A stretch of 64,000 bases of DNA. Source: Euglena gracilis (lineage: Eukaryota). Under the pieces are notes generated by a model. That model was not told where the DNA came from. It made no database searches and saw only the letters and a list, made by a program, of their open reading frames with translations. The DNA lies in NCBI GenBank assembly GCA_039621445.1, contig CP154954.1, positions 45,921,847-45,985,846 on the forward strand, read 5' to 3'. Both the position numbers and the translations under genes were made by a program. Every line of letters begins with the position of its first letter. The first letter of the stretch is position 1. Below are positions 5,710 through 63,991 of this stretch, one piece after another.

Positions 5710-6030
<321 letters not shown>

Positions 6031-16379: not shown

Positions 16380-17010
16380 TCACTGCGGTATTTGGCCCCC
16401 GTCCCCTACATCACCCCCGCCACCCCGGAGGAGGGCCACCTCGAGGCCGTCGTCCGGTGCATCGCTGACTGCCTTCAGGAGGAGGGCTGGCTCGACCTGG
16501 ACAAGCTGTGGCCAACAGCACAGACACTGTGCAGCACGAAGAGACATATCACTTACCTCTTCCGTGACATCTTCCAGCGAGTCTTCTGCAGCTACGCCCA
16601 GGCTGTGCACAGATACCATATGGGTGCCCTCGTGGGTGGCAGCCTGGCCCCAACGCGTTCACGGCGGAGGAGGACCAAACCATTGTCAGTGCTGTGGAGA
16701 TGCAGAGTGGACCGATCGACTGGAAGACGGTCGCGGCGCTGCTGCCCCACCGTACCGCTGTAGTGGTGAGAAACCGATATTGCAGCATGTCACGCCACAG
16801 CCCGGCCAGCATGACGTACGGCAAGGCATCGTCGTTCCCGGAGGAGACGCTGCGGCGGCAGCAGTTGCTGCGGGGCTTCTTCTTCCGCCACCGCGTGCCG
16901 GTAAACCACCCGTACTGGGCGGACCTGCTGGGGGCCGACGTCGGCCCTGTTATTCGCAGACTCCCAGTTACAGACGCTGATGGCGGTGCAGCCGAAGAGA
17001 ACCCTTTGGT
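16380..17010 (+). pseudogene. Myb/SANT-domain-containing coding segment, frameshift near 16600-16640
   Basis: FTAEEDQTIVSAVEMQSGPIDWKTVAALLPHRTAVVVRNRY (about 16658-16780) matches the Myb repeat pattern (F/W)TxEED...W..(I/V)A..LPxRT....RNRY. The upstream GC3-rich part (16380-16620) is in a different frame. Confidence 0.65.
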
Positions 17011-18619
17011 GATGATGACTGCTTCCTCCACAGGGGCTTCATTTTGTATCTTTTTTTTCCATTCAATTTTCATTTGTATTGAAAATGTGGATGCTTTTTT
17101 TGGTGGACAAAGGAGAGCACAAACCATGAAGCTTTTTACATGGAGTTGAAGGTGAACGATTTTCACTTTGAGAGAGTCTCATCAAAAATCTAGACTCGCA
17201 CAAGCTTTTTGAAATTCAAGGATTGGAATCGAAAAAAATATCCGGTTTGGAAAATGGTAAGTGCATGAGTTGTTTGACCATTGAGACCTCGTACTTTTTT
17301 GCCACGAGCCAATGGTTGTTGAATGATTGTAAATGTGCATTACATCCCCCCCAATAAGCATTTTCTTTGGTCTTGGTGGCTCTCAGTCGTTTGTCGGTCC
17401 AAAAAGGGTTGGTTTAAAAGGGGCAATCGGTTTTTTCAAGGGTTGCAAATTTTGCCAATTTGTGTTTTGGAAAAGGAATTTTTAGGACAAAAGGATTTTT
17501 TTTGTAAACAAATAAAGCTTGGAAAAACTTGTTCCCCCCAACATAGGGCACATGGCACTTGGAGAATGAGCGTCTGGCCTCAACAAGCACAGGGTCCAAA
17601 TAAAAACGCACCCTCTGCTGCCGAACCCTCCAGTCCACTACAAGTGCACCCCCCCCATTTTGATGGCAAGAAAACATGAAGAAAAAAATGACAAAAAGAA
17701 TCACGCAGGTGGGGTCCAAAGCACCCTCGCCCCGCCCCCCCCCCCTCAGGGTGGGGTCGGCACCTGACCAAAATACAGCCTGCCAGACTGTAGCGGACCG
17801 CTGCTTATGGCGGCGGTGGTCTGGTGCATAAGCCTTTACGACACACTGGTGCAAAAGTCTTTACGAGGTCCCCTGATTTTTTTGCCTTATTGACGTCAAT
17901 GTGACGTTGGCTGCGTGCTGCATTGATGCCAACTCTGCAAAAAAAGCTGCATTTTTTATGGAAGCTGTGTCTTCCCAAACATGATGGGGCTGAGTTGGTA
18001 GCAAGATCGTAAAATAACTTTTTCTGGGTGTCCAAATGGCTAGTTTTGATCTGGACATCTTGTTTTCATGGGCAATTCAAGGCATCAAGTTCCAGAGCCC
18101 AACTCCTCAGGGTTCCGGAGTTGTGGGCCATTTAGATTTTGAGGGGAACTCAGGAAGGAGGGGGAATTCAGGAAAATGAGTGGAAATCTTTTTTTGACGG
18201 GTAGTTCACAGGCTTCAATATGGTGTACGTTGGGACCATGGCTGTATGGGAATCCCTGCAACCCCATGGGTGATGGGGGGTCGACCACCCCCCCCACCCC
18301 CATGCTGGTGGGGGGGTACGACCCCCCCCACTTGGCCTTCCCATGTTTCCGGGGGCGCCAATCTTTAGGTCAAAAATTTCTTTCGACACCTTCGGCGCCG
18401 AACGAAGTTTGTTTGAGAGGGTCGACCCATCCCCCCCCACCAGGCTTTCCCATACAGCCCTGTCCAGGACCTCAACACAGCCCCCACCCAAAGATATTTT
18501 GGTTTCAATACTGAACCTTGGAAAACGGGACATTTTTTTGAAAAAAGTTCATATTATTTGGAAGTTTCCAAAATTCCAGGCCGAAAGTTTTTTTTCAGCA
18601 TGACACTGGAAAGAAATAA

Positions 18620-26387: not shown

Positions 26388-28572
26388 GGGGGGACTGCAC
26401 ATGGGTCGTTCAAAAACTGCACTGCAAAAAGCTGCACTCCAACAAAAAATCACAATAAAGAAGCTGAAATGGTGTGAATATCAATGTAATTTGCAACCCC
26501 ACAAGCACCCCCATTCACATTTGGTATTTTCTTGCACAGTTTTGAAGCTGCCGAATGGCGAAAACATTTCACTGTGCATGTTTCTTTGTCAGAAACACTT
26601 TTTTGGAGAAATGATGTGTTTGATTGCAAAACTTGCACATCTTTGGTGGTGGTGTGATACGTTTACTGCAGACAAAGCATGCCTTCGATGCCGGGTCGCC
26701 AACTGGTTTCCGAATTATGCCTCACATTGCCTCGGTGCAAAATTAGTGTACACGTTGTCAGCATTGGTGATACAGATGGAAAATTATACAGAAATATTTT
26801 ATTAGGAATGTCTTCTAGCACACCATGTGGCTCTCTAACCGTTGGTGATATGAATTTCAAGTTTAGAATTTTGTGGCTGCTCAGCCTAAATTCGACCGAA
26901 CTCGCTCCGGAATGCGTGACTTCTCCTCAGAGCGCTTTGGGGCAAATTGGCCAGAGGGGACATCCAATATGGATTTCTGAATGTGCTGGACCGAACGTCA
27001 TCCAACCCCACAAAGCAACTTCTCTGCCTCCACTGCGCCACAGATCACTCTCCTCCATCAGTCGATCCAGCCAAAGGACCCCCAGTGACACAGCACCACC
27101 ACCAGGGGATTTGTTCTCCTGTGAGGAACTCCACTTGCTGACTTGGGGGGGGGGGGGGCTGCCACCAGCCAGCAGCTCCTAGACAGGCAACCCATCCCCA
27201 AGTCCAGCATTTCTGTCCAAAATGGCGTCTTTGAGGGAGGGAGGGGGTTTCTTATGACCTCTCGGCTTCCAAACTGTAACACCGCTGGACTCCAGTGCTT
27301 TGCCTGGGGTTGGGGGCCAGCGTGGCCACCAGCTAATCTGATGAACAGCTGGGCACCAACACCTTCAGAGGGCTGCCTGTGAGAAATTCCCTTGCCGTCT
27401 CCCCCGCTGCCCTGCCTTGGCCGGCCTCCAGCCTCAGCCAGGCCTCTGCCAGGGCTAATCATGGAGGATCGGCGTGGACCCCAATGGGTTGGTCTGGACC
27501 TCCCTTGCAGGGGGGAGGGTGGGCCGGACCCCCCCTCTGGCCCAAGAGAGGGGGGGGCACCCCCACCTAAACCCTGTACACCCTCTTTATGTCGGACCCT
27601 GTGGAGGGGCCTTGTGCTATGGGGTGCCTGCCCAGCAGGCACCCCTATCCCCTGAGAGGGGTTCACAGGCATTTTCCCTTGAAAATGGCCATTTTCAGAC
27701 CCCTGAGTCTTTGGCAGCAGGGGTCTGATATACCACCCACCCCAAAACCCCAAAACCTTGCCCTCCCGGCAGGTCCGAAAATGCGCCACGTCTGCTCATA
27801 GCAGTTTCCCCCACAAGGAGGTGTGACATTCCTGAAAACAAAAGATGTGGAAGCATTCCAAGGGCAGGCTCGTCTCTTCCCCGACCCCTACCTGGGACCA
27901 CCCCAGAATGGTCAAAAATTTCTTCTGGCGATCATCGAAAATTTTTGAATGTTTGATATTTTTATTGCCCAAAGCACTTCAGGCCGTTCTGGGGGTCAAT
28001 TTTTTCTTGGCGCTTCACACTGGGCTTCCCCCCACCCCTCCTGGACAGGGTGGGGATCCGACCCCCCACCTGCCCTTGTATGAACCCTGCCCCTCCTCCC
28101 CAGGTGTCGGTAGAGAGAAGCCTGACCTCCCCGGCAAGAAACCATCTGTGACTTTTGTGCAGCTGTGGTGGAATCTCGGAGGGTGGCGGAGGGAGGGTGG
28201 GTCAATTACACCTTGCAATGCTTTGTTCCCTTCCTGTAAAATATATCAAGCACTCATATATTCAAGTACCGTCCCTAACGTTTTCACATCATCAGCATTG
28301 TGGTCCATTGAAGAACCAATACACTAAATGATAAATGTGTTAATCACCTCTGAAGAACCAATGAATGTATTAATCACCCTAGGCGGCCACCTAGTGCAAT
28401 AAAACCGACGGGCCCGTCGGTCATTAAATTGCAATTTTGGTTGCATATGCATATGGCGATGCTTTAAAAGGTGTGACCGCATTTTTTCACCTAGCCCATT
28501 GAGAGGAAATCTAAAGCCTCCGCCTATGATAAACTTTTTGCATCGTGGTGTTCATGGTGGCATTTCAAGATC

Positions 28573-29709
28573 TTGATGACCGACGGTCCCGTCGGTCAAG
28601 TTGGATGTATTGTGGACGTCACGACGAAGTTGCATCTGGTATCACCTGTGCATGCACATGCCTTGAGTGAAGTGCCCACTGTTCAAAAACTACCCCACAT
28701 TGAAAGACTGGTGGCGTCGCTTTTGATCCTCGGTCATGAGTTGCTGCCAATGGTTGACGGCGAGATCGACCGGTTGCGTGCCTTATTAGAACGTTTGACG
28801 AGAGGGATGACCGACGGGACCGTCGGTCATGATGAACGATCTCGTTCCATACACAGGAAGGAGGTTCTCTATGCGCGTATTCTCAATGGAGAAACAGGCT
28901 ATACTGTGAACGCTCGTCTGAATCAGCTTATGCTGCGTTTGCTCATCTCGGATTACTGCCCTGCACTGTTTGCAGTTGGACAACGAGTTCGTGAGTGCAA
29001 TTGGGGTGGGCAACGATTGGGTTCAGGGACTGCTGCACGCCATGCTCTACAATGGTCTCTATCTCTCCTCATCAGAATGCACCCTGCAGATTTCCGTCGT
29101 GTGCGGTACATAAAGACAGTAACACAGGCACTCCTGTGTTGGATGCCGTGGCATGACGTTGCACCTGGAGTTCTGCACACGGAGGAGTGCTGTGAATCGT
29201 TTTTGAGCAAAGTCACACGCTCCATGCGTAAGTTTGGGTCTCATTCTAGCCACGAAGACTATGCAAACGCCTTCTTGCTAACGCACCCTGCCAGAACGGC
29301 CCAGGAACATTGCACAAGTGTCCCGAAAGTCGTCCTCCGTCTGGTAAAGGAACGTGTCCTTCGTCTCGTGAACACAACAATTGTATTACCACAGGTCAGG
29401 TGGGTCCCACGTGGAAATGCAACTGTACCACATCCGATGAAGTATGCTGTGCAACAACCAATCGCTCCGTTAGTACGAAAGGTTCCAGACGAGGTTGTGA
29501 AGATTTTGTTGCTTGAGTCGTTGCATGGTCTTATCCAAACGCACAAAGCTTCCGACGCGTTTCTTGGGATGCTTGAAAACGTATTTCCCCGCAGGTCCAC
29601 CGAGCGCATCGCCCAAGAGGAGAGGAAGGTGCAACAGGTTCAAGAACTTGAACAACACCCTTTTCAAGCGACGTCCCAAGCGCCATCGACAAGTGCATCA
29701 AGAGGATGA
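28573..29709 (+). CDS. Element ORF1 (378 aa), putative partial transposase-like protein
   Basis: Long uninterrupted ORF next to the left TIR. The segment ..RYIKT....W..W...GVLHTEECCESFLSKVTR resembles the C-terminal catalytic-Glu helix of some RNase H-fold DDE transposases. No clear N-terminal Asp motifs were recognised, so function is inferred mostly from context. Confidence 0.45.
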   Translation: MMTDGPVGQVGCIVDVTTKLHLVSPVHAHALSEVPTVQKLPHIERLVASLLILGHELLPMVDGEIDRLRALLERLTRGMTDGTVGHDERSRSIHRKEVLYARILNGETGYTVNARLNQLMLRLLISDYCPALFAVGQRVRECNWGGQRLGSGTAARHALQWSLSLLIRMHPADFRRVRYIKTVTQALLCWMPWHDVAPGVLHTEECCESFLSKVTRSMRKFGSHSSHEDYANAFLLTHPARTAQEHCTSVPKVVLRLVKERVLRLVNTTIVLPQVRWVPRGNATVPHPMKYAVQQPIAPLVRKVPDEVVKILLLESLHGLIQTHKASDAFLGMLENVFPRRSTERIAQEERKVQQVQELEQHPFQATSQAPSTSASRG

Positions 29710-29962
29710 GGATGTCGAGGAGTGAACGGCAGGGCATCCTTCCTCCCCCTCTGAGTGTTTTTTAACACCTTATAGTCATTCCCTATCTCTTTTTGCAATA
29801 CGACAATGTTTTTGAGAGGTCTCTGCAAGATGAAGCATTTCTTCTGCCTACTTGGAAGCTGGAAGTCATTTTGCTCTTATAGAATGTGTACAAATCTACT
29901 CAAGTTGGCTGATTGCATGTCATTTTGCACTCATATCACTATCTTGCACAGGGTCGTGCCAG

Positions 29963-31123
29963 ATGTCTTCCCATTCGGGCGACTCGGATGATGGTATTCA
30001 GGAATTGGATGAAATGATTGCGGCTGAGGAATCCCCGTCACCTGAGGCTTCACACGCACCTGCTGGCGATGACCTGATGGATGCCGAGGAACAAAATGTC
30101 CCCGTGCTGCCCGTCTGTGAGAAGAAGAAGCGTCGCAAGGTGAAGGAAGATGCAGAGGACATTGCTGGCGGCATGACGAAGTCCCAAGCAGTCAACTGGG
30201 CATCAACCAAAGGGACCATGGAATGGTTTGTCGCTTTGAACCGTGAGATCAACGTGGACAAGTTGGCGTGGGACCGATCAGGTGAATTCGGTCAAGGTCG
30301 GCTCCTCGATGACCATCACGTGGAGGTCCTGCTCCGACCGCCACGAAAGCCAATGACCGTCGTTGTTTGGGAAAATGATGCAGACAAACGCTACTACCTC
30401 CTGGCGGGGCAGCACACAGCAAAGGCGCTTCTTCGAATTCGTGACGAAAGGTTGAAGGAAGGCTTGCCATTGGAGCAATGGCACAGGACCGTGTTCGCCG
30501 ACATCCTCAAGTACTCCACGCCACTGGCAATCAGGCGCAAAGTCAGTGGCTGTGACAATGCCAACGCCAAGTTGCAGCGAGTCACTCCGGTTTCAGAGTG
30601 TTTGCAAGGCTTCATGGCAGATAAGGATGGAGACTTCAACACCCGATTGGCACGGGCTGTGGAAGCGGCGGGCCTCATCAACGACACAGAGAATCCTTGG
30701 AATTCGGTGAGGTATTGGGTGCCTGTCGCCATGATGGTCTCCCATTGGGGTCAGCGCGCACTGGCTGCCATCCAGAACTTTGAGAAGAAGCTGGAGAAGG
30801 ACAACACCGTGAGGATCAACACTTTCGTGCCTCTGTCCAAGGTGAACGATGTTGCCTTCATGGACGAGGTCATTCAGGTGATGGCTTCTCCAAAAGCCAA
30901 CATGGGGGCGTTCCACAATGCCATTGCACGGTCGGCGAGGAGAATGTGGTACACGTGGCACATCCTTCATCCAGAGCTACCTGTGCATGAGGAGCGCCGA
31001 ACAACTGCCCTTGTGATCAATGAAAACAAAAGGCTCACAGCTTTTCTGGTTCCCTGTGTTCGTTCAATGTTTAGGCATGGAATCAAATCACATTGCCTTT
31101 TCCAAAAACGACAGCCGTCTTAG
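29963..31123 (+). CDS. Element ORF2: ParB/Srx (DGQHR-like) domain protein with acidic N-terminus and basic NLS-like patch
   Basis: EINVDKLAWD..GQGRLLDDHHVEVL..PMTVVVW..RYYLLAGQHTAKAL follows the ParB N-terminal pattern (Q-x-R-x-L, P-hhhh, Y-x-hh-x-G-x-H). KKKRRKVK lies upstream. The ORF is open from 29852, with a probable ATG at 29963. The 3' end may splice into 31420 onward. Confidence 0.6.
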   Translation: MSSHSGDSDDGIQELDEMIAAEESPSPEASHAPAGDDLMDAEEQNVPVLPVCEKKKRRKVKEDAEDIAGGMTKSQAVNWASTKGTMEWFVALNREINVDKLAWDRSGEFGQGRLLDDHHVEVLLRPPRKPMTVVVWENDADKRYYLLAGQHTAKALLRIRDERLKEGLPLEQWHRTVFADILKYSTPLAIRRKVSGCDNANAKLQRVTPVSECLQGFMADKDGDFNTRLARAVEAAGLINDTENPWNSVRYWVPVAMMVSHWGQRALAAIQNFEKKLEKDNTVRINTFVPLSKVNDVAFMDEVIQVMASPKANMGAFHNAIARSARRMWYTWHILHPELPVHEERRTTALVINENKRLTAFLVPCVRSMFRHGIKSHCLFQKRQPS

Positions 31124-31419
31124 CCCTTTTCGTTTGCATGTACCATTATGACCGACGGGCCCGTCGGTCATAATGTGTGTCATTGGTGATGAAACCTATC
31201 TTATTTGGCTCTTCAATTTGCTGAAATGGAATCACATGAGGCGTTGGAAACGACACTTGTTCAGGGCACGCGCCATTTTGCCTTCTTTTGCTAAAATGCT
31301 ACCACGGTGCAGCACGAATCGGGCATTTCCGCAACAATGACCGACGGGCCCGTCGGTCATTGTGATTCTTTTTTTTGGCTGATAGGATCTCATTCAAACA
31401 ATGTTCATTGGTCACAAGG

Positions 31420-32720
31420 CACCGCAGAGATCAACCGTTTGATGGCGCTGGTGCCCAAGCTCCCAGCGATGAAGGTGAACCTGGGCAGATGGAAACCTGA
31501 CCAGCTGGAGGAGGACACCGCCAAGAGGATGCCCAAGGCGGAGGTACTCATGCGTGCCCGCTTGTGGACAGATGAAGAGTACAAGTTTGCCCGTGATCTG
31601 CTCGCTCGCGCACCCCTGAATATCGACATCAAAGAGGATGGCGTGATGTCCAAAGTCGCTGTGTCTGGGACGGACAGCACGGTCACCGTCTTCCCAGGGA
31701 GTTCTGCAATGCCAAAGACCATCGCGACCCTGCCCCTGCGGATCATCTTTGTGGATTTGCGCGGGGTGAGTGCGGACGAGGTGGAGGATGCCATTGATGG
31801 AGTTCCTGGGCGGTTCAAGCTGACTGTGCTGCCGGTGGTTCTCTTTGGAGGACACGAATCCGTGGATGCAGGCGTTCTGCGATTGCAAGCATTGGTGGGT
31901 CACTTGGAGTGGCGAGCGTCGACGCTATGTTGTGTGGACCAACGACAAGGATTTCACGTACACTGCAGCCAGGCGAGAGTTGGTGGTCTTCCTTCCAGAT
32001 GGTGGTGCCCCCCGGAAGCGTCAACCGCCATTCTTCAACATCATCCATGCACAACCACCGCTGCTGGGCTGGGTGGCCGTGTTTGGCATCTTGCAGATGA
32101 CGTTGCTGCCGGAGGACCCCGAGGCTTCTGTGTCCCAAGCTGTCGACTGGCTCTATGTACTCAGTGACGATGCTGACCTCCCGGCGCTCATGGCCACGAG
32201 GTTGGACAACATGCCTTCTGTGGCGTACTGCCCTTTGCGATCCGACGACCCCGTGGCGGACCATGCAGGACGTCTTGGAGAGTCTTTGAAGTCAGGACAG
32301 AACAGACCCATCATCCCGTGGGGGGAGGTCTTCGAGAAGGCATCGCACCTGCTTCCGCTGTTCGACCCAGAACCCGAGCCCATCACCATCACCAACGTTG
32401 ATGCTGGAAGCAGCGACAGTGAGGACCAGCAGGACAGGCGGGGCAAGCGGCCGAAGAAGGAGCCGCCGTTGAAGCCGTTCAGCAGGCAGAAGGAGAAGGA
32501 GAAAGAGAAAGAGAAGAAGCGAACCGAAGAAGGGGCACCAGCCAAGGGGGCACGACGACCTAAGCAACCTGCAGCTGCACCCGCCGCCGCCGCTGCTGCA
32601 CCTGTCGAGAGCCCGACGCGACCGCCGAAGCCTGCAGCCACGGAGCAGCCACTCACGGCCAGTGACCTGTCCAAGCGCTTGGGCGTCGGCGGGGGACTGC
32701 GCAAGCCGAAGCACCTGTGA
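31420..32720 (+). pseudogene. Element ORF3 (two overlapping frames, shift near 31915), alpha/beta domain possibly a degenerate beta-class DNA methylase fold, with Lys/Ala/Pro-rich tail
   Basis: ORFs 31307-32167 and 31845-32720 each look coding in consecutive halves. Motif order VTVFPGS / RIIFVDL / YVVWT..RELVVF / DWLYVL..LMATRL loosely parallels beta-class N6A/N4C methylases, but DPPY and FxGxG are absent. Confidence 0.4.
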
Positions 32721-34821
32721 TATGCACTCTGGGAGTGTGTTTGTGTGACTGTTGCACCCCATGTGTCCTCAATGCAGCCAAGCTTGAATCACATGCTTTC
32801 TCTGTTGCTTTTCATGGATGTGACCGACGGGCCCGTGCAGCACTTGAGGGAGGGACATGGCCCAGGACAGGGCTTCGACGGGATAATCCCCAGTGCAATT
32901 TGCTTGCATGCTTGCCAGTCATTTTGGAGATTTAGGTTTGCAGATGCTGCATAGGTCAACTGTGTTTCAAGGGTGCCTTGTTGTTCAAGGATTGCTTTGT
33001 TGCCACAGGCAGCCTCGGGTTCATTCCAGTTTGGATACGGAGGTCATTGTTTTACTCAGGGAGCTCATTTGCAACGTTGCACTCCTGCATTCCAGTTCAA
33101 CGTCCAAGGGTCTTGCTGCACATCGATTTCCAGAAAGTGTAATGCTTTTTGGTTCTTTTGGCAAGGGGTGTTGTTGTTTTGCCCAACATTTTTCACATTC
33201 CTTCCGCCATCACTGTGGGCCACCATGACTCCATTCATCCCTGTTTCGTGGTTGCAAACAAGTCGCCAGGTGCTGTTTGTTCTGCCATCATCTTCACAGG
33301 TTCTTCTTCTTACACCTCTTTTCCTCCCCAAATGTTCACCTCGTGGGTGATTACAGCTGCGGTCTTTCGTGTTCTGCCGGTGCAGGTGCCCAAAGTGAGT
33401 GTGAACGTATTTTCTCTGACAGTGGCAACCGTTTTTGACACCTTTTGCAAACTAACAAAAAGTGAAATTTGCCTAATTTGTGGAGGAAAACAGCCAGTTT
33501 TGGAGGTACTCTTTCCTTTTTCGTTCCAATATGGCATAAATCCATCCAATTTCGAAAGGATGTTAGCACAAAAATGACCGACGGGCCCGTCGGTCGTTCG
33601 TTGCACTAGGTGGCCGCCTAGGATCACCTATGTGTTCACCATCATTGTCTATAACAGGACCAGCGATAGCACTATTTGGCCGTTGCCCAATTATATGTGC
33701 AGGAGAACCAGTGCCCAGTAATATAATGCAGGAGACAAAGTGTCTCATTGGAGATTGAACCCTGACTCTAGCCCTCAAACCAAGCATCCCCCCCTTTTTA
33801 GGGGCACTGGTTCTCAAACGCAAATGCAATGGGAACCATGGCCGGCCGGCTGATGCAGTGCAATGGGTCATTTGGAGGCCACAATGAGGACCACAGGGGT
33901 CCCGGATTCTTTGGCGGTGACGGTGAGTGAGCTGCAACTGGGCTTGAGCAGTGGTCGGTGGGACCCGACCCCCCACTGCAGGGAAGGGGCCTGGTCCTCC
34001 CGACTGCGTTGCCCCCTCCCCCAGCCCCGCAGTCCCCCGGCGCCGGCCCACCCCTGCAGGCGTGTCCCCCGGCCCAAAGTTCAACCAGCACCCCTGGAAC
34101 CCCAAAGTCCCTCCAGTATTTCACACTGGAGAATTTCAGCAAACATGTGCCCAACAAAAGTGCCCGGAATCGCATTCTTGGCTGATTTCAGGAAAGAAGT
34201 TTTCGGATGGGCTGAGATTTGGTTAATTTGGCCACTGTGCAATGCTTTAGGCGGCAATCCCCCCTCCCTGACCAGAGGCACCACCTGTTGTTATGTCGAA
34301 CTCTTCCAAGCTGGTTCTCCTCAAAACATGCTGTCTCACACCAGGGGATTTTTCAGATCTGGCTTGTGGAAGTGATACCCCCCCCCGGGTCTGAAGGAAA
34401 GCCCTGTTTGAGAGGGTGGAAAAAACTGATAATGCATGATCACTGCTGGATCCCACCCAAACCCACCCCCCCCCCGGGGTCCACAAGCATTTTTTCCCCG
34501 CGGGGTCCCCTGTCTTTAATGTCTGAATTTCCGGCATTTGCCCCCAAGTCTGTGGGAGCAGTCCAAGGGACAAGTCTCCCTACCAGTCCCTAGGAGTTAT
34601 AATTTTATCGTGGGACGATAACCCCTCCCTCTGCACCGGTCGTTTTCGCGTGCCTGACACCTTGGCTTGTTGTTGCCACAGGGGAAGGGTTGGTTCGATC
34701 CCCCGGTGGAAGGCGCTGCCTCACTGCCTCCAACTTCTTCGCCGCCCCCACTGGGAAGGCCCATGACGGCGCTGCAGCACCACTTCTCCATCGCTGGTAG
34801 ACTCCCCATCTCTGTGACTGA

Positions 34822-35084
<263 letters not shown>

Positions 35085-35157
35085 CACTTGGGATAGAAAG
35101 AATGTGTTGTTTGTTTGTGAAATTCACACAATTGTGCCCTTCAAGTAGTGAGTTGAA

Positions 35158-38100
35158 CTTAGGCGGCCTAATTCGCACTTAAGCTTTTTTCTTTTTATTT
35201 GCGCACTTGCGCAAATTTACGAATTTTTTGATTCTGCTTTGATTCGGCTGTGAAGGTCAGGGGGGTTTGAAAACACGTTGACAAGAGAGTGCAAAAAATG
35301 AGCAAAATTCTGTTTTTTTGGCGGTATGACCCCCGGGACTTTGGTGAAAAATGGTGTTTTGGGGGTGTCCGAAAATGGGCTTTGTACGTCGAAACCCCCG
35401 GGACCTTGCCCTTGCCGGCCCACACTGAAGAAAAAAAACGCAAAAAAGCACCATAGGAACGGGACCTTTACTGCCCTTGTTGCTCCTTTCGGCTGTGCCC
35501 CCGGGTGTGCCCGAGCTGCCGGCTGTGTGCATCCTGGGTGTTTGCCGGACTGCGTTGCTTGCGGCGCCTTGGCGTGGTGGTTTTGGGTTGTTTGTTATAG
35601 CGCAGGGAGGAAGTGCCGGGGGGTGTGGGTGTGGTGTGATAGAGCCGGAAGGAGGGCCGCAGTGAGAGGAAGGCAAGTGTGGGGTGTTGGGCAAGGGAAG
35701 CGCAGGGGGGATGAAATGGGGTCCGCAGGGAATGAAGGGGACGGGCGTCTCCCACCCGGCTTATACCCGGGATGCGCACAACCAGCTGTGTGGCAAAGAA
35801 CCCGGCGGAAGAAGCCCAACACTGGAAGGGCAAAATTTTGTTTATTTGCGCAAATGCGCGCACCAACACGTTTGTGTTTATTTGCGCAATTGCCCAAATA
35901 AACATAAACATGTCCTTCAAGGATTGGGCTTTGGCACCCATGAACTGATGCTGTTGAAAAACGGCGTGACAAAGGAGCTGTGAGTGCGCAGACCAACTGG
36001 CCGTCCAGTTGGTGGGTTTGTCACACTGTTTGTCGACGGCGCAAGCTTATTGGCGCAAATGTGCGCACAAACAAAAATTATGTTTTGTGTGCGCATTTGC
36101 GCAAATGCGCAAACAAACATGTTCTCTGTTTATTTGCGCATTTGCGCAAATAAACACACAGAAGAGTGTGACGGAAAACACAACCGTCAAACACCAGCAG
36201 CAGATGTGGTTTATTTGCGCAGTTGCGCGGATCACGTTGTTTGTGGGCGCAAATGCGCAAATAAATTGTATGAAGAAACTGCACAATTTACTGTGTTTAT
36301 TTGCGCATTTGCGCCCAAAAAAACGTGATGCGCGCAAATGTGCAAATAAACAACCAATTGTGTTCATTTGGGTTGAACCAGTCCAGAAGCCGCCAAGAGT
36401 AGCTGCAGGAGGGCCAAATGAAATCGCTTTCTACTCATCCTGCATATGGTGTTATGGGGCCGTTTTTGGACCATTGACAGGTCTCACACAGGCAATTGCT
36501 TATGCACTGACCGACAACCCCCCCCCCCCCGGGGGGTGGGTGACTGGTTTTTTCAGAGTGACTGACTGGTTTTTGGCCCGGCCCCCCTCCCCCCCCCCCC
36601 CCCGGGGGGTCGGCCAGGAGTGGGCAAAAGTGGCTTGAGTTGACCCCGGCGCCGAAGGCGCCGGAAAAAAATTTTTGGGCCTAAAATGGCCTAAAGTGAC
36701 TGGAAAGTGGCCGTTTTTCTGAGTGGCCGACCCCCCCCCCCCCGGGGGGTGGTGACTGGCTTGTTTTTTGAAAATGAGTGACTGACTGGTTTTTAAAAAA
36801 AAAAGTGGAGTGACCCCCCCCCCCGGGGGTCGGTAAGCAATTGTATGGTCCCACAAAGGATGGAGACATAGGACCTCCTGAAGTTGGGTGCGCAGCCACC
36901 CGGTAACGGTTCATGTCCACCGGCACCAATTTTTTGGGTCCCAAGGGCCCTGCCGCTGGCCTGAGGCCTCGGCTCCGCTGCTGCAGCCACATCAGCTGCT
37001 GATGCTTCAGCACCTGCTGATGCTTCAGACCGGCATCCACCTCCCCGGTGCAACAACACCCAGATTTAGCGGCCACGTTATACCCCGCCACCGGGGCGTG
37101 AGACTAGGGGGACGACGTGGTGCCAGTGCATGGCAACCGGCAGCCGGAGAGAGATGGCCCTCAAACACCCGTCACTTTGGGTGCAAGGAAGTGTTGAAGC
37201 TTCACCGCATTGGGTGCATCAAAGCGGTGGGACCCACTCCCCCCGAATTATGCACAAAAACCGGTGTTTTTTACGTTTTTCAAGGGAAAAATGGTAAAGA
37301 AAACCATGAAAAGGACTACGGCCGGACACGTCCCGGGCATTTCAGGTTCCAATTTTGTCTTCTTGTAACGCAGTCCTGTTGCATAAAAGGTGTCCAACAG
37401 TCACAGGTCGTTTGCATGTCATCAATTAATTACGTTTAACTGCCAAACGGATGACGCCAAAATAACAGGTCGTGTGGGCCGGGTAATAACAGTACAAATG
37501 TGTGCACGTGAGGCAGGCAAATTTTGGCCAGACAAATGCCGTGTTCCAGTGAACACCCCACACCACCTCTCACCACAAATTTCATCACCACGTAATTGTG
37601 GTGCAAATTATTGGTTGGCGTGAGGAGTTGCGTTCGCCAGCCGTCACGGACGAGGAGATGGTATCGCAAAACTGATGTGTGTTGGTGCGCGCATTTGTGC
37701 AAGTAAACACAACTTTGTTTGTGCGTCAAATTTTGAAGCGGTTAATTAAATGTTTGTGCGCGCATTTGCGCAAATGCGCACACAAACGTAATTGTGTTTA
37801 TTTGCGCAAATGCGCGCACCAACACGCCCATCACGTTTTAAAACCTCGTAGGGTCATGGTCCTCATTGGTGTCTTTTAACATGGAAAGTAAAAATACATG
37901 TTGGTGTGCTCATTTGCGCAAATAAACATAAACATGTTGGTGTGCGCATTTGCGCAAATGCGCACACCACCAGTTTTATTTGTGGGCACATTTGCGCCCA
38001 CCAACACGTCATTTTATCATCATCAGTTTTCATTTTATTTGCGCAAATGCGCCCACAAACACAATTGTTTTTATTTGCGCAAATACACCCACAAACACAA

Positions 38101-42624: not shown

Positions 42625-45600
42625 TGACGTTTCACTCCCCCCCCAAGGGAGCTGCCGTCTGCCCCTCCTGGGAACTCCAGGGTTCCCGGACCTGTCATGT
42701 GACAGTTTCCCTGTGAGGAGGGGGGTTCAGGGTTCAGGGGAGGGGGGAGCCCTCTCGTCGGGGGTGTCCGCAGCCTGCGGTGAATTCCCCAAGGAAGGCC
42801 CTTCAAATGAGACCCCTCGTGCCTGAGCGGACTGAGTTCAAGTTCAAAAGGAAAATCCCAACTCCAAGGCTCTTTTGGGTGCCAAGAGAGGGACGGTGGA
42901 AAAAAGTTTTGAACGGACGCCCCGCGTTGCACGCGCCTCGGGGGCAGGGGAAGAGGGGCGGCCGCGCCATGCCGCCGGCCCCGACCTCCGGGGCGTGACC
43001 GCGGTGACCTTTGCGCCGCTCCGCACCTGCACCCGCACCCGAACCCATGGCTGCTGTCGCCGGCCAGCAGTTTTCTGAAATTGGGACCAGGTTTTAAGTG
43101 AGCTTTGTTTTTGCACAGGAGGTCGGACCATCCCCACGGGCCCCAATTGGGGGTCCGGTTTCCGCACCCCTATTTTTTCCAAAAAAGGAATGCTCGAAAG
43201 CACGATTTTGGGGCGTTTTTGAATCTCCATTTTTCTTAATTTTGGGGTTTTTTTGGATCTCCAATTTTTTTTCACCGCCTTGTGCTGGATTTTTTTCTGA
43301 AAGGGTCCCCTCATTTGGCAGCCGGCGGTTTCTTTCCCACAGGACGCTGGAATGAGGTCGGCGTATTAAGATTCTTATTCAGGTGATGGAATGAAATATC
43401 TGGAAGGTCTTTTCCCAATTTCAACAGCAGTAACTCATTTTCAAAGCGAAAACATTGCTCGTTCAGACGAAGCCGTCATAATCCAATCCAATCCAATCCA
43501 ATCCAGTTTTTGTTCTCCAAGGTGCCTTCCTCCACGAACGCTCTCTCTTGAGGCCTTGGGTAGAAACACACCCCCTGTTTGTCTGCCTAATTGCACGGTC
43601 AAATTTACTGACGAGAACAAGCAGGGCGGAACAGACAATTACCAAATAAGGTCTTTGCATTTCGCCTCTCGCTGTTTTTATTTATCAAACCGTGGAAAGA
43701 TTGAGCCCTCCCCAAAAAAATTTACCACCTACCAGAATTTTCCACCAACCAATTAAAAAGGATGGCCGGTGGTTTAACCTCATTAACTCTCCCATCCTAT
43801 GGCTCAAAACCAAACCAGCAAACCAGGATAAGTATTTGCCTTTTGCTTCTGGAAATGTGACCTCCCGAAAGCAAGCAACCGATGGCTTGTATTTGGGTTT
43901 CCGAAAATTGGCTCTGAGGGTTGCTCATATTTGGGTTTGCATTTGGGTGTCGCCCGAAAATCGGTCAAAGGGTTGTTTATAATTGGGGGTTGCGTGCAAA
44001 AAGGGGTTGCTTTATTGGGGGGGGGGTGCTACATGAATTGAACGCCCCACTTTGGTTGACCACCAAACCAGACTTGGTCAGGGATTGGTCATTCCTTCGG
44101 CCAGCCAAAACAAGAAAAATGGGGTCGAACATTGGGATGACTGGACGTGCTTCAAAGGAACGTTGATTTCATGTTCTTTGACGTCGGAACTCTGCTGTGG
44201 AGCAGAATCAACGCAGCCGCACTTTTGTGTTATTTGCTTTATGTTGCTTGCTGTTTTTTTTTCCAGGGTTCGACGCCAGGACTGCTGTATTTGTTCGCGT
44301 CTTCCATCATCCTCTGCAGACCCCGGACCCATGCCTCTTGCTTTTATGTTGCAGGTTCTTCTGAATGTTCCCCATCCCAGTTTCCGCCATTTGCACCAAT
44401 GCGCTACCCCCCCCCCCACACTGACTCAATTTTTTTTATTTAAAAAAAAATGCCACGGGCCAGTCGTCCAGAGTGTCAAAAGTTGCCCCACGTTGTTCAC
44501 AAACCTTTTTGAAAAGCCCTCACTGCAGACCGCGCAAACGATTTGTTTCTCGGCTGACCACCACTGGGGCAACTGGTGACAAACATGCCCCCAAGCAAAA
44601 GTGTGCGGGCTGCAGGACCTGAGGGGCGGTGGAAGCCTCATTTGCTCTTTGGATGGTGAAAATCACGTGCTTTTTTTGTCACGGTCACCCACATCAAAGG
44701 TGATGGAATGGCAACATCAGCATGATGGCTTTGTGCCTTGGTGATGGCCAGTTGGCAACATCAGCAATGGCTTTATCATTCAGTTGGGCAATGGGTCATT
44801 CAAGTATGTCCTCCAGCCACCGGGTCAGCTCGGCTTGCGTCCAAACCTGTACTCGCCCATATCAGGCCTGCCATGCCTGTGTTGGAGATATCCTGCTCAC
44901 CGCGCAGTCACGCATTTCCTTGTTCATATTGGTGGAAACATTTCTGGTTTCATTGCGGTTCGAACGCAAGAGCCAAGCCGAACGCAAAGTCAGCCAATTT
45001 ACAAAGTTCTCGCACCTGCCCGTCGCTGTCACCCTGGGGTTTTTTTGGCCCACCGGAATTATTTTGTGGAAATTATGACCTCACATTGAAGGGTTGATGG
45101 GGACACCGACAGCGAAGCACGTCCACCTTGACCGAGACCGAAGGAAGACGAGGCTTCGGTCTCAGGGGTCGATATAATGTGCGGGTTTTGGTGAGGGCCC
45201 CCCCCCCCCCCGTGGACCGGACCCCCCCCCCACCTGCCAAGGGTATCAAGACCCCCCAAAAAATCAAATTTTTCCTTCCTCCTTTTTTTGCATTTTTGAC
45301 AAATTTTTGCCCAAAAAAAAGTGCCCAAAACGGCACTTTTGGACGTGGGGGGTCAAACTGTTTAGGTGAACTGTTGTTTAGGTATTTTATTGTTTAGATT
45401 CCCCCCCGGAAAACCCTTCTCAAAAGGTCGTTGTGCTTCGCCCTCGGTGTCCCTTCCTCCCTTGGCATTTTGCCTCGAGGGAGTACGAGGGGCATACTCG
45501 TACTCCCTCGAGGAAAACCGACCAGGGAGGAAGGGACACCGAGGGCGAAGCACAAAGACCTTGCCATGCCTTGTTCGCCGGCGGTGTTTGGATTGTTTTG

Positions 45601-45787
45601 GTGCGTCGGGTTAGGAGTCCCTGCTTAGTGCCGCCTCGCCGGAGTTGGCTGACGATGTTGCTCCGACTTGGCGACGTGACTTCTTGCCCTTGGGGGGGGG
45701 GTCCCCCCCCTCTGCCCCCCCTGGCCCCCACTCTCTGACCGAGGGCTTTTGAAGACAAACTTTCTTTTTCGGGTGGGGGGGTCGGGC

Positions 45788-46654
45788 TCACAAGGTCTTT
45801 TGTGCTTCGCCCTCGGTGTCCCTTCCTCCCTGGTCGGTTTTCCTCCAGGGAGTACGAGACACCTCGGGCTCCGCACTTTGCCCTTGTGAGGCCAGATTGT
45901 GCACTGAAATCAGGGGGGCCAGGGCATTTTCCAGGGCACCTTGGGCACCTAGTCGTTGATAGTGGGCTGTAAAAGCCTCCACCCCCTTCCACTGGCCAAT
46001 CTCACAAACTTCTTGGGCAGAAAGGCCCAATTTTTTGAGTAAACCAACTCCTGCCCCTCTGGTGGAGTGGGCCCCCCACGCCTGGGGGGTCACCCCATGC
46101 TTGGCCAAAAAATATTTTGTGATTGAAGCCACAGTGTCTGCACTTATGGCCTTGAAGGGGGGTTTTAATGAAATCAGAAGGGGGCCCCCAGGTCTGACGA
46201 ATAAACGTGTAGCAGCCACATAAGACATCATTAAATGAAAGGGGCTTATTTGTGGACATTGGGGAATGGACACCACCCTTTCCCACTTGTGAAACTTTTG
46301 GCCTTTACGTTTAATTTTAATGTAGGGTGCCCTACCCAACACACTGGTGGTTCGTTTGACTTGTGCCAAGTCAGAGGATCGATATAAACAGAGAATTCGT
46401 GAGCAAAAGATCAGCTGGGTACGCAATGTACAAATATCAGTGGGCATAGGCGCCTTTGCCAGCCCCAGGAGGATTGGGAGGGGATCCCAAAATGCCCCAT
46501 ACTTCTCCAGGTTTTGGTTCCAAAGGCTCTTGTAGGGGTTCAAAAGGGTGTGGAATCTCAGCCCACCAAATCCAGGAATCAAAAGCATTGCACTATAGGC
46601 ATTACGGGCTTGGGCCTTGGAGAATTGGAATAATTGAATTAAAGCGTCAGCCAC
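45788..46654 (-). CDS. DIRS tyrosine recombinase (copy 1)
   Basis: Catalytic R (LYRSSDL), H-x-x-R (HSTRG), GxW and Y (FTAHY) in the expected order. An N-terminal extension in another frame reaches about 46810. Confidence 0.9.
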   Translation of the reverse strand: MADALIQLFQFSKAQARNAYSAMLLIPGFGGLRFHTLLNPYKSLWNQNLEKYGAFWDPLPILLGLAKAPMPTDICTLRTQLIFCSRILCLYRSSDLAQVKRTTSVLGRAPYIKIKRKGQKFHKWERVVSIPQCPQISPFHLMMSYVAATRLFVRPGGPLLISLKPPFKAISADTVASITKYFLAKHGVTPQAWGAHSTRGAGVGLLKKLGLSAQEVCEIGQWKGVEAFTAHYQRLGAQGALENALAPLISVHNLASQGQSAEPEVSRTPWRKTDQGGRDTEGEAQKTL

Positions 46655-46799
46655 TTGGTCAGTGGTGCCTTCAGCGGGGGGGCACGCCCATGTGTTCTAA
46701 AATTACCCACAGAAGTGCAAAGGCACTCTGATAACGCTTTAAACTCGGGTTTCTCCCCAGGAAACCTTCAATGGTTTTAACCTGAATTTTTTTCCCCTC

Positions 46800-47736
46800 C
46801 AAAATTTGCCTGAGCAAATCATGCAAAGCAGGGGCCACTTGGGGGGTGGCATTTGCTCCCCCCTGCAATTGGTGAACATACCCCTGTAGGGGGTGATTTT
46901 CAGGCAGGGGGTCCCTGGCACTTTCATTTTTATTAATTGGGGCCACCAGGTGGCTGAATCCCAAAAGGGGGTGACCATCAAAACTTTGGTCTGGGGAAAC
47001 ATCTTTAATCTGGGCAGAAATTTTTGGATTATTGACCAGGGGGGGTGTGCATAAAGATCCCCCATGTTGTCCAGTGGACATTGCAATGCATTCACTGCTG
47101 TGGCCTCCCAATGGGGCCACCTGGCCACAAAATTAGGCAGTTTTTTGTTGCCTGGGGAGGCAAATAAATCTGTTTCCAGATTTATGAAATTTCGGAATTG
47201 CTGTCTTAGCCATTGAAAAAGTTGGAGGTCTAAAGAATAATCCCCCCTGTCCATTTCCCATCTGCTGATGGGGTCTGCCAGGCATTCTTTTGAAGGTACC
47301 CAGTTGACTTAGAGGTTTACTTGGTGCTCCATGCACCATTGGAAAAATGGTCTTAGCATTTTGTTGAAGGGGTCCTTTCTGCCCCCCCCCTTTTGTAAGG
47401 TAATAGTAGATTACCTGGCTGTCCACTGACAAAGAAACTGTTTCCCCAGGTTTGCTCAAGCCTTTCACTGTGTTTATTGCTGCACTGAGCTCCTTTACAT
47501 TGATGTGCAAAGTGGAGTCTTTTCTCCAAAATTCCTGCACAATTTCTCCTTTATGGATGTCCAGCCCCCCCCAGGCATGGGTGCTGCTGTCTGAGTGCAA
47601 CTCTCTGGTTGCATTTTGGGGGAAGGGTCGGCCCCCCCCAGGTGTCCAATAGAGTTTTTATTTCCCTTAATTGGGCCTTGATTTCCTGGGAAATGGGGTG
47701 TTTTGAGTCCCAGGGGGCTGTGGACTTTGCCACCAA
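46800..47736 (-). pseudogene. DIRS RNase H plus Dam-like adenine methyltransferase domains (copy 1, frameshifted)
   Basis: RNase H motifs LHSDSSTHAWGG, HINVKELSAA, SVDSQV and LADPISR. Methylase motifs DLFAS..NKK, VNAL and YAHPPW (YANPPW in copy 2). Confidence 0.85.
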
Positions 47737-47739
47737 ATA

Positions 47740-49830: not shown

Positions 49831-50319
49831 TTGACTTCTTCTTTTCTCAATTGGTGAAGTCTTCGAAGTTCCTTTCTTCTGGGTGTCGAAAGGCAATTTA
49901 GGAATCAGCCAACTCCGGCGAAAAAAAGGCACTAAGCAGGGACTCCTAACCCGACGCACCAAAACAATCCAAACACCGCCGGCGAACAAGGCATGGCCTC
50001 ACAAGGGCAAAGTGCGGAGCCCGAGGTGTCCAAATACTGTGGCAGCTTTGGTTGCCTTCAAGGGGCACCCCTGTTTTTTTTCTTCAAGACCGCAAGTTTT
50101 AAACAACAAGGAGGTTCTTTTTCTCGGTCCTCAGGGTTTTCGTGTCTCTCTCAATCGAGCACCTTCAAACAAAGTGCGGAGGAAAGGGTTTTTGGCAAAC
50201 GACCTGGAAAGCTCTAGGCCTCCTGCCTGTCCCTTCGCCAAAAACGCCAGGGAACAAACGAGTGTGTGGTCATGGAATTTGTGGTCCTGGAACGAACGCA
50301 TGAATTCGAGTGCCCAGCC

Positions 50320-62494: not shown

Positions 62495-63991
<1,497 letters not shown>

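What the first reader, a model, noticed from the sequence alone, without database searches (positions are those of the whole stretch)
28378..33622. Eukaryotic TIR transposon encoding a ParB/DGQHR-like protein and carrying its own repeated palindromic sites
Seen: perfect 22-bp TIRs, a 5-bp TSD (ATCAC), three coding blocks, and a ~24-bp palindrome repeated 7 times inside the element and not noticed elsewhere in the window. Known: ParB/Srx-fold domains with a G-x-H-R-type motif occur in prokaryotic partition, Dnd and phage ParB-methylase proteins, and canonical ParB loads at repeated palindromic parS sites. Inference: a CC..GG-ended, 5-bp-TSD element with ParB-like cargo does not fit the superfamilies I recognise (Transib/ProtoRAG have 5-bp TSDs but CAC termini). 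It may be an undescribed cut-and-paste family in which the ParB-like protein binds the palindromes to organise or protect the element.
Basis: partly seen in the sequence, partly recalled or inferred. Interest (0 to 1): 0.88.

Follow-up and report, generated by a model that had tools for sequence, protein, structure and literature searches.

The report
ParB-carrying TIR transposon of Euglena
A multi-copy jumping gene, most likely in the alga Euglena gracilis, carries a bacterial-type ParB DNA-binding protein plus seven copies of a palindromic site that this protein probably binds, a self-recognition kit so far described only in seaweed transposons.

Summary
Window 28378-33622 has perfect 22-bp TIRs, a 5-bp TSD (ATCAC), three coding blocks, and a 24-bp palindrome present six times in full and once truncated, nowhere else in the window. 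Public contigs show a multi-copy family whose copies end exactly at the TIRs, with deletion derivatives. 25 of 34 shown between-copy differences in the ORFs are synonymous.

This copy is damaged. ORF3 lacks 2 bases and ORF2 lacks 15 bases that other copies have.

Binding of the palindromes by ORF2 is inferred, not shown. ParB-type accessory proteins with adjacent inverted repeats are already published for red and brown algal transposons. This is therefore a new variant of a known kind, in a new lineage, with a Pfam-invisible ParB family and TIR-abutting sites. A new transposon superfamily remains possible but unproven.

The parts
28373..28377 (.). left target-site duplication ATCAC
   Evidence: read directly; identical 5 bases at 33623-33627
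28378..28399 (+). left 22-bp terminal inverted repeat
   Evidence: pair I7, 100% complementary, 2 hits vs 0 expected; contigs of other copies diverge exactly before 28378 (loose ends)
28401..28424 (.). palindrome P1 (subterminal, 1 base inside the left TIR; outer arm degenerate)
28576..28599 (.). palindrome P2
28807..28830 (.). palindrome P3; its ATG is the first in-frame ATG of the conserved part of ORF1
28807..29709 (+). ORF1, 300 aa (the frame is open from 28495); no known family
   Evidence: no family found; 6 of 6 shown variants in 29286-29568 are synonymous
29966..31123 (+). ORF2, 385 aa, ParB-type protein: acidic N-terminal tail, ParB/Srx N-domain (about residues 85-203), ParB-like helical DNA-binding domain (about residues 206-339). 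This copy lacks 15 bases behind 30330.
   Evidence: deletion
31124..31468 (+). spacer between ORF2 and ORF3 (same reading frame, 4 in-frame stops); possible intron or intercistronic region; acceptor-like polypyrimidine-AG ends at 31386
   Evidence: P0074 reads through the equivalent region
31148..31171 (.). palindrome P4 (perfect 24-mer)
   Evidence: (I5, I18)
31337..31360 (.). palindrome P5 (perfect 24-mer)
   Evidence: (I5, I23)
31469..32720 (+). ORF3, about 417 aa in intact copies, broken here by a 2-base deletion at about 31900. Unknown domain followed by a K/E/P/A-rich tail.
32821..32836 (.). palindrome P6, truncated in this copy (16 nt); complete in other copies
   Evidence: family D2; loose ends at 32836 in X1, X3 and X15
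32837..33573 (.). 3' region without a supported ORF; its depth in public contigs is higher than that of the coding interior
33574..33597 (.). palindrome P7 (subterminal, 3 bases inside the right TIR)
33601..33622 (-). right 22-bp terminal inverted repeat
   Evidence: contigs of other copies diverge exactly behind 33622
33623..33627 (.). right target-site duplication ATCAC

Best explanation
Window 28378-33622 is one slightly decayed copy of a multi-copy TIR (cut-and-paste type) DNA transposon of Euglena gracilis or a very close relative. It encodes three proteins that are kept under purifying selection between copies. ORF2 is a two-domain ParB-type protein: a ParB/Srx nucleotide-pocket N-domain followed by a ParB-like helical DNA-binding domain. 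It belongs to an unnamed eukaryotic family. ORF3 is linked to ORF2 in a distant relative as well. The element carries seven 24-bp palindromes, the outermost two directly inside the TIRs. Inferred mechanism: dimers of the ParB-type protein recognise these palindromes in the way ParB, KorB and Noc recognise parS, OB and NBS. That would give the element a self-recognition module that marks its ends and internal control regions, serving to regulate or shield its own chromatin or transcription and possibly to help pair its ends. The enzyme that cuts and pastes is not identified. It is either supplied in trans by a family member with other internal content, or hidden in ORF1 or ORF3. Shown: structure of the element, copy number, selection, and ParB fold and architecture. 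Inferred: binding of the palindromes, and what that binding is for.
Against: No binding data exist. No Pfam ParBc hit at E<=1 for ORF2 or for 5 homologues. PHROG ParB-like hits are only sub-threshold, E 0.26 and 0.22 in 2 of 6 family members scanned. hhalign of the family profile against P1 ParB alone found nothing. The arginines of the ParB GERRxR box are not conserved (the family has G-Q-H-x-x-K/R-A), so CTP-type chemistry is uncertain. No ParA partner is present. The association of the ORF2 family with palindromes could not be tested in any other organism, because no contigs were retrievable. This copy's ORF2 lacks 5 residues that are present in 11 of 11 close homologues, and its ORF3 is frameshifted, so this copy cannot itself be fully functional. 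No transposase was found, so 'transposon' rests on TIR, TSD, copy number and deletion derivatives. Only one TSD was seen.
Confidence: 0.55

Rival explanations
1. The element is autonomous and represents a new cut-and-paste superfamily. The ParB-type protein is the end-recognition or synapsis subunit that binds the TIR-abutting palindromes, and ORF1 and/or ORF3 supply a catalytic activity of a type not yet recognised. Alternatively, the ParB/Srx domain itself acts as the nuclease.
For: No known transposase domain in any ORF. All three ORFs are under purifying selection between copies. The only repeated motif in the subterminal regions, where transposases usually bind, is the palindrome suited to a dimeric ParB-type binder. 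CC..GG termini with a 5-bp TSD match no superfamily I can recall (recalled, not tested against Repbase/Dfam). The ORF2-ORF3 module is conserved in a distant relative.
Against: ORF1 and ORF3 could not be folded and have no detectable catalytic signature. Other family members share the 5' 290 bp but carry other sequence behind 28667, so a separate autonomous partner is plausible. In the published algal cases the ParB proteins are accessory to ordinary DDE transposases.
Confidence: 0.2
2. The palindromes are not sites of the ParB-type protein. They are binding sites of the unseen transposase or of a host factor, or hairpin-forming processing, termination or recombination signals. ORF2 acts elsewhere, for instance as a nucleotide-dependent enzyme like sulfiredoxin or serine kinase, or on other DNA.
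For: Co-occurrence in one element is the only link between ORF2 and the palindromes. Subterminal repeats are ordinary transposase sites in many TIR families (general knowledge). The best sequence-level match of the family is to sulfiredoxin, not to DNA-binding ParB. Four internal palindromes read as MTDGPVGH in the local open frame, which hints at another constraint.
Against: The model aligns with ParB, KorB and Noc over the DNA-binding domain too: 183 of 190 and 196 of 208 residues. All of those proteins bind palindromes as dimers. Internal copies far from the ends (31148, 31337, 32821) are not expected for pure transposase end sites.
Confidence: 0.15
3. ORF2 (with ORF3) is a captured host gene carried passively, Pack-MULE style, with no role for the element.
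For: Homologues have introns in other organisms: many predicted proteins end at the same point in unconserved read-through, as host genes would. No context is known for any homologue.
Against: Synonymous bias between copies. The ORF2-ORF3 order is conserved at about 29-40% identity. Element-specific palindromes match the kind of site that ParB-type proteins use.
Confidence: 0.05

Closest known systems
PAG3 of red-algal Plavaka (also Zisupton, Mutator and Fanzor-bearing) transposons, Bostrychia moritziana (bioRxiv 10.1101/2025.02.11.637652; section 8 read)
   Same: A ParB-homologous N-terminal domain is encoded inside a eukaryotic DNA transposon, linked to a second domain. Inverted repeats lie next to the gene. 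The authors propose that the protein binds, and perhaps modifies, its own transposon. An accessory gene of unknown function (PAG1) accompanies it, as ORF1 does here.
   Different: PAG3's second domain is a 2OG-dependent oxygenase; ORF3 here gave no such hit. The repeats there are tandem arrays beside the gene, whereas here they are seven dispersed single palindromes, two of which abut the TIRs. The carriers there are 17-19 kb elements with a DDE transposase, whereas this one is 5.2 kb with none seen. The host is a red alga versus a euglenid. Sequences could not be compared because supplements are closed.
ParB-DNA methyltransferase accessory protein of Ectocarpus Sola1-1_Ec32 (PMC12477816, passages read) and the chlorophyte/chytrid ParB-HTH-Dam family (PMC4738411, passages read)
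   Same: ParB-type DNA-binding module in eukaryotes and in transposons, proposed to target the element's own DNA.
   Different: Those carry a recognisable N4/N6 methyltransferase domain and a Pfam-recognisable ParB. Here there is no methyltransferase hit at E<=1 and no Pfam ParBc hit.
KorB of plasmid RK2 with its dispersed OB operators (PDB 8qa8/8qa9)
   Different: Bacterial plasmid, CTP-dependent clamp with GERRxR-type arginines, and partner proteins (KorA, IncC). None of these were shown here.
Chromosomal ParB/parS and Noc/NBS (PDB 7bnr, 6sdk, 6t1f, 7nfu)
   Different: No ParA. No Pfam-level sequence membership. G-Q-H replaces G-E-R-R. The setting is a eukaryotic nuclear transposon. The C-terminal dimerisation domain is not modelled (pLDDT below 50 after residue 347).
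Transib / ProtoRAG
   Same: 5-bp TSD and TIRs.
   Different: Termini here are CCTAGG..., not CAC... No RAG1-like core in any ORF.

Membership tests
ParB/Srx-fold superfamily | N-terminal alpha/beta ParB/Srx fold | tested here: met
ParB/Srx-fold superfamily | Glycine-rich phosphate-binding loop (ParB GERRxR, Srx GGCHR, DndB DGQHR; names recalled) | tested here: met
   The family profile aligns its L-G-G-Q-H loop on Srx F-G-G-C/S/A-H-R (E 0.015-0.052). G148 58/64, Q149 63/65, H150 63/64, K/R153 41/64, A154 60/64. This is a variant form: His replaces the ParB arginines.
ParB/Srx-fold superfamily | Sequence membership in Pfam ParBc (PF02195) or an NCBIfam ParB model | tested here: not met
   No hit at E<=1 for window ORF2 or for P0001, P0005, P0033, P0040, P0146. 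PHROG phrog_1033 gives only E 0.26 and 0.22.
Canonical ParB/KorB/Noc DNA clamps | N-domain followed by the central helical (HTH) DNA-binding domain | tested here: met
Canonical ParB/KorB/Noc DNA clamps | CTP binding and hydrolysis residues | not testable with these tools
   No residue-level structural alignment or ligand test was available. Conserved G-Q-x-R (G109, Q110, R112) and N/Q198 are candidate counterparts only by position (inference).
Canonical ParB/KorB/Noc DNA clamps | Specific binding to palindromic sites carried in cis | not testable with these tools
   Sites of the right kind are present, 6 full and 1 truncated 24-bp palindromes. Binding needs an experiment.
Canonical ParB/KorB/Noc DNA clamps | ParA-type ATPase partner encoded alongside | tested here: not met
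   No P-loop/ParA family hit in ORF1 or ORF3.
Class II TIR (cut-and-paste) transposon | Terminal inverted repeats flanked by a target-site duplication | tested here: met
   (this copy only).
Class II TIR (cut-and-paste) transposon | Several copies with different flanks ending at the same termini; internal-deletion derivatives | tested here: met
   loose ends at 28378 and 33622/33623 with low flank agreement (0.53-0.65). Joints 28659>33060 and 30116>31530. Element depth 20-60 against 0-8 in the outer flank.
Class II TIR (cut-and-paste) transposon | Encoded transposase of a known catalytic class | tested here: not met
   No transposase family in Pfam, NCBIfam, PHROGs or PDB sequence searches for ORF1 or ORF3. 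The folds of ORF1 and ORF3 were not obtained.
Class II TIR (cut-and-paste) transposon | Empty (pre-insertion) site in another genome | tested here: inconclusive
   No joint 28377>33623 was listed in X1 or X3. Contigs drop rare variants, and only 2 DNA runs were laid.
Transib | 5-bp TSD with CAC... termini and a RAG1-like transposase | tested here: not met
   The TSD length fits. The termini are CCTAGG. No RAG1-like hit.
PAG3-type accessory protein (ParB + 2OG oxygenase) | 2OG-dependent oxygenase domain C-terminal to ParB | tested here: inconclusive
   ORF3 pieces and the 3-sequence ORF3 profile gave no Pfam or PDB hit.
ParB-DNA methyltransferase accessory protein | N4/N6 DNA methyltransferase domain | tested here: not met
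   No methyltransferase family at E<=1 (window pieces) or E<=10. The candidate motifs that I recalled are not conserved in P0074 or P0147.

The most novel reading that the evidence does not exclude
A previously unrecognised cut-and-paste system in Euglenozoa. A ParB-type nucleotide-gated DNA clamp recognises TIR-abutting palindromes and assembles the transposon ends. Catalysis comes from a protein of no known transposase class (ORF1 or ORF3), or from the ParB/Srx domain itself. That would be a new transposon superfamily built around a partition-type protein.
Probability: 0.18. Interest if true: 0.9.

Novelty: new variant of a known kind. Interest (0 to 1): 0.58.

Why it matters
ParB proteins are the classic bacterial site-specific DNA clamps. 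Their recruitment by eukaryotic transposons has been noted only recently, in red, brown and green algae, and has never been tested experimentally.

This element is a compact version of that arrangement (5.2 kb, seven defined 24-bp sites, a 385-aa protein that folds with high confidence). It comes from a culturable protist of a different supergroup. It shows that a whole ParB family, with 140 cluster representatives, is invisible to Pfam.

It makes one question directly testable: does a transposon use a ParB/parS-like pair to recognise itself, and if so, for regulation, protection from silencing, or end pairing? If the element proves autonomous, it would also define a new transposase class.

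Tried and rejected
**Host genome.** None is held. Genome-wide copy collection, TSDs of other copies and empty sites could therefore not be done.

**Word-index protein searches.** ORF2 and ORF1 returned nothing. The full phmmer scan later found 140 ORF2 relatives.

**Protein Atlas.**
- Closed for ORF2.
- P0074 gave only unnamed clusters and a 33%-share dynein-tail cluster at 0.93-0.94, with low recognition.
- ORF1 gave 0.80 to HTH_animal clusters, a score that shuffled proteins often reach.
- None of these is used.

**The search for related loci and the DNA search.**
- A3 in metagenome contigs: 180 pattern matches, none confirmed.
- P0146: 87 matches, none confirmed.
- A3 in viral contigs: 20 matches, none confirmed.
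- The palindrome core was absent from viral contigs.

**RNA.**
- No RNA holder was listed.
- RNA run X21 laid 0 reads from about 5% of the run, which is no test.
- X15 ('RNA?' by guess) has contigs that stop at the element terminus and may be DNA.
- Expression, splicing and SL trans-splicing remain open.

**Homodimer job for ORF2 residues 75-345.** No verdict.

**hhalign of the family profile against the single P1 ParB sequence.** No match, probability 0.14%. P1 ParB is a divergent single sequence, so this is a weak test.

**ORF3 as a degenerate MT-A70/beta-class methyltransferase.** This was a resemblance in motif order that I recalled.
- No support from Pfam, NCBIfam, PHROGs or PDB.
- The motifs are not conserved in P0074 or P0147.
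- Dropped.

**P0111/P0146 (483/502 aa) as fused ORF2-ORF3 forms.** Their C-terminal 247 aa show no BLAST similarity to ORF3. Only P0074 links the two.

**piggyBac reading (CC..GG ends, TTAA in the left flank).** The right flank has no TTAA and there is no piggyBac transposase hit. Rejected.

**Other blanks.**
- Rfam: no match in the window.
- Viral origin: nothing found.
- Structure prediction of ORF1 and ORF3: not possible. One of the two jobs was consumed by a request that was never run.
- Supplements of the algal papers are closed, so PAG3 and Sola1-1 protein sequences, TIRs and TSDs could not be compared.
- Earlier-findings look-ups returned nothing relevant.


Full report

Yes. The arms 28378-28399 and 33601-33622 are 22 nt and perfectly complementary (pair I7). 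With up to three mismatches allowed, the 22-mer occurs only at these two places in 64 kb, against 0.00 expected in 100 shuffles. The five bases ATCAC flank both ends, at 28373-28377 and 33623-33627.

The 20-nt core of the palindrome occurs six times with at most one mismatch, always inside the element, against 0.00 expected. Copies P4 (31148-31171) and P5 (31337-31360) are perfect 24-mers (I5, I18, I23). A seventh copy at 32821-32836 is cut short in this copy. Contigs of other copies continue it into a full palindrome (loose ends at 32836 in X1, X3 and X15).

The half-site ACCGACGG occurs 14 times in the window, 13 of them inside the element. The first and last palindromes lie one and three bases inside the TIRs, so each terminus is TIR plus palindrome.

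**2. It is a repeat family with these exact ends.**

No genome is held for the window, so I laid public contigs on 27800-34200 (DNA-type runs X1 and X3 of two organism labels).

- Summed contig depth is about 20-60 across the element and 0-8 in the outermost flank bins.
- Contigs that leave the element do so exactly before 28378 (X3, 3 contigs) and behind 33622/33623 (X1 2+2, X3 2). Flank agreement is low (0.53-0.65), meaning different insertion sites.
- Joints 28659>33060 (4,400 bases skipped) and 30116>31530 show internally deleted derivatives.
- The terminal bins (28442-28655 and 33364-33577) are two- to five-fold deeper than the coding interior.
- At 28667/28668 other family members carry different sequence. 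Elements with other internal content therefore share the 5' end.

Contigs reach from the unique flank 30 letters (X1 left, X3 right) or 8 letters (X3 left) into the element. That is under the tool's 31-letter rule for bridging, so a shared insertion at this locus is suggested but not shown. No empty-site joint was listed. TSDs of other copies could not be paired.

**3. Coding capacity and selection.**

There are three forward ORFs.

- **ORF1** runs 28807-29709 (the frame is open from 28495).
- **ORF2** runs 29966-31123.
- **ORF3** runs 31469-31900 and continues one frame over at 31902-32720.

The ORF3 shift is a private lesion. Other copies have two more bases behind 31900 (X1 25.8 of 32.9 depth, X3 24.2 of 24.2, X15 6.76 of 6.76). 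Homology to relative P0147 continues across the break into the second frame.

This copy's ORF2 also lacks 15 bases that other copies have behind 30330 (X1 13.6 of 13.6, X15 3.71 of 3.71, X3 0 of 7.3). These correspond to five residues present in 11 of 11 close homologues.

Of the 40 between-copy differences that displays (238 more were not shown), 34 lie in the ORFs. Of these, 27 are third codon positions and 25 are synonymous, binomial p 4.7e-8. All three ORFs are therefore real genes kept by selection, while this particular copy is decaying.

**4. ORF2 is a ParB-type protein.**

Sequence searches:
- Pfam and NCBIfam see nothing, and the word-index search found nothing.
- A full phmmer scan of 1.84 billion cluster representatives found 140 relatives at E<=1e-3, 58 at <=1e-10 and 10 at <=1e-30.
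- All ten relatives that I looked up are unnamed or 'hypothetical' proteins on short ENA/JGI contigs.
- A 67-sequence alignment shows a conserved pattern G-Q-x-R ... S-L ... P-P ... W ... G-Q-H-x-x-K/R-A.
- Conservation counts are G109 59/59, Q110 57/59, R112 54/59, G148 58/64, Q149 63/65 and H150 63/64.
- The profile's best PDB hits are six sulfiredoxin sequences, E 0.015-0.052, aligned loop on loop.

Structure:
- The AlphaFold model built on the alignment has pLDDT above 90 for residues 80-340.
- Foldseek against the PDB gives 11 hits at E<=1e-3, all ParB or Noc, followed by KorB, Caulobacter ParB and sulfiredoxin.
- Against viral models there are 37 hits at E<=1e-3, and the named ones are ParB/Spo0J-like.

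ORF2 therefore has both the ParB/Srx N-domain and the ParB-type DNA-binding domain.

Against full family membership:
- No Pfam ParBc hit.
- PHROG ParB-like hits are only at E 0.26 and 0.22.
- No hhalign match to the single P1 ParB sequence.
- His replaces the ParB arginines in the phosphate loop.
- No ParA partner.

**5. ORF1 and ORF3.**

Neither has a Pfam, NCBIfam, PHROG or PDB-sequence relative.

ORF3 has two relatives: P0074 (29% identity, E 2e-16) and P0147. P0074 carries the C-terminal part of an ORF2-like protein and then the ORF3-like region in one open frame. P0147 starts at the methionine that equals window ATG 31469.

In the window, ORF2 and ORF3 share one reading frame. They are separated by 345 bp with four in-frame stops, and this spacer holds P4 and P5. 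Homology to P0074 reaches about 26 codons upstream of the ORF3 ATG. A strong polypyrimidine-AG ends at 31386.

ORF2 and ORF3 are therefore either two exons of one gene or two adjacent cistrons. In either case, they form a module conserved at low identity.

No transposase was recognised anywhere in the element.

**6. Host.**

A window ORF at 63035-63991 (minus strand) contains a PsaD exon that is 65/65 identical to PDB 9uas chain D. It is nearly identical to 9vfj and 9vjs. The papers that cite these codes are all Euglena gracilis photosystem I structures (listing and abstracts only).

The window is therefore most likely from E. gracilis or a very close relative. That fits the nuclear psaD, the GC content near 50% and the retroelements with RT.

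**7. What is known.**

Full-text searches found no description of this element, nor of ParB-type genes in euglenozoan transposons. They did find clear precedents elsewhere.

- In Bostrychia and other red algae, Plavaka, Zisupton, Mutator and Fanzor-bearing elements carry PAG3, a ParB-homologous domain fused to a 2OG oxygenase. Tandem arrays of inverted repeats lie next to it. The authors propose that it binds and modifies its own transposon (bioRxiv 10.1101/2025.02.11.637652, section 8 read).
- In Ectocarpus, Sola1-1_Ec32 carries a 1,104-aa ParB plus DNA-methyltransferase protein (PMC12477816, passages).
- Chlorophytes and chytrids have ParB-HTH-Dam fusions (PMC4738411, passages).

The idea of ParB cargo that recognises its own element is therefore published. 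Three things are new here: the lineage, a ParB family invisible to Pfam, and a compact element whose dispersed palindromes include the two that abut the TIRs.

**8. How it most likely works.**

Shown: a selected ParB-type two-domain protein and seven element-specific palindromes in one mobile element.

Inferred:
- Dimers of the protein bind the palindromes, as ParB, KorB and Noc bind theirs.
- The dispersed layout is three sites in the first 450 bp up to the ORF1 start, two upstream of ORF3, one behind ORF3 and one at the 3' end. This resembles KorB operators on RK2 more than a parS cluster (the KorB comparison is recalled knowledge). It suggests self-regulation or shielding.
- The two TIR-abutting sites suggest a role at the ends.

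I put 0.55 on the self-recognition accessory-module reading. I put 0.2 on the protein being part of a new transposition machinery. I put 0.15 on the palindromes serving something else. I put 0.05 on passive gene capture.

One oddity is unexplained. Palindromes P2 and P3 (in the ORF1 frame) and P4 and P5 (in the ORF2/3 frame) all read MTDGPVGH in the local open frame.

**9. Limits.**

There are no binding data, no RNA evidence, no folds for ORF1 or ORF3, no host genome, no Repbase/Dfam comparison and no access to the supplements that hold the algal sequences.

Noticed in passing
window 63035-63991 (minus strand): An ORF contains a PsaD (photosystem I subunit II) exon, 65/65 identical to PDB 9uas chain D and nearly identical to each unit of a three-unit PsaD polyprotein (9vfj_D). 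The codes are cited only in Euglena gracilis PSI papers. This identifies the likely host and shows a nuclear psaD gene with an intron after ...FPEKV.
   Followed up: partly
window 45400-56200 (minus strand): Two adjacent or nested retroelement copies. RT ORFs lie at 47495-48574 (Pfam RVT_1, E 5e-23) and 52814-53410 (E 4e-9). Each is followed by a 260-300-aa ORF (45788-46696, 50729-51523) that looked to me like a DIRS-type tyrosine recombinase but has no Pfam hit.
   Followed up: partly
window 28667/28668: In X1 and X3, two contigs each diverge here in both directions (agreement 0.97-0.98). Other family members therefore have a different or additional segment at this point. It may hold the missing part of a longer, possibly autonomous, element.
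   Followed up: no
window 28576, 28807, 31148, 31337: All four internal full palindromes have their ATG in the frame of the local open reading frame and read MTDGPVGH. One of the three frames through the palindrome has a stop, so chance is roughly 4%. The meaning is unknown.
   Followed up: partly
window 28014-28227 and 33623-33802: The immediate flanks are themselves repeated: depth is 31-37 against 4-8 further out. Contigs in X1 and X3 join 33802 to 29894 with 27 other letters between. The element therefore sits in older repeats, and a truncated copy lies in a similar context elsewhere.
   Followed up: no
window 5159-6207 and 34597-35178: Long (CA)n/(GT)n microsatellites, seen as runs of T-H and C-V in the ORF listing.
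   Followed up: no
window 16568-17149 (+): An ORF with a Myb-like DNA-binding domain (Pfam PF00249, E 3.5e-9), probably an exon of a host gene.
   Followed up: no
proteins P0003, P0005, P0006, P0008, P0012, P0013, P0018: Many ORF2-family homologues lose similarity at the same point (after ...T/S-P-V) and run into unconserved tails. This suggests a conserved intron position read through by prokaryote-style gene calling. The window copy and P0001 have no interruption there.
   Followed up: no
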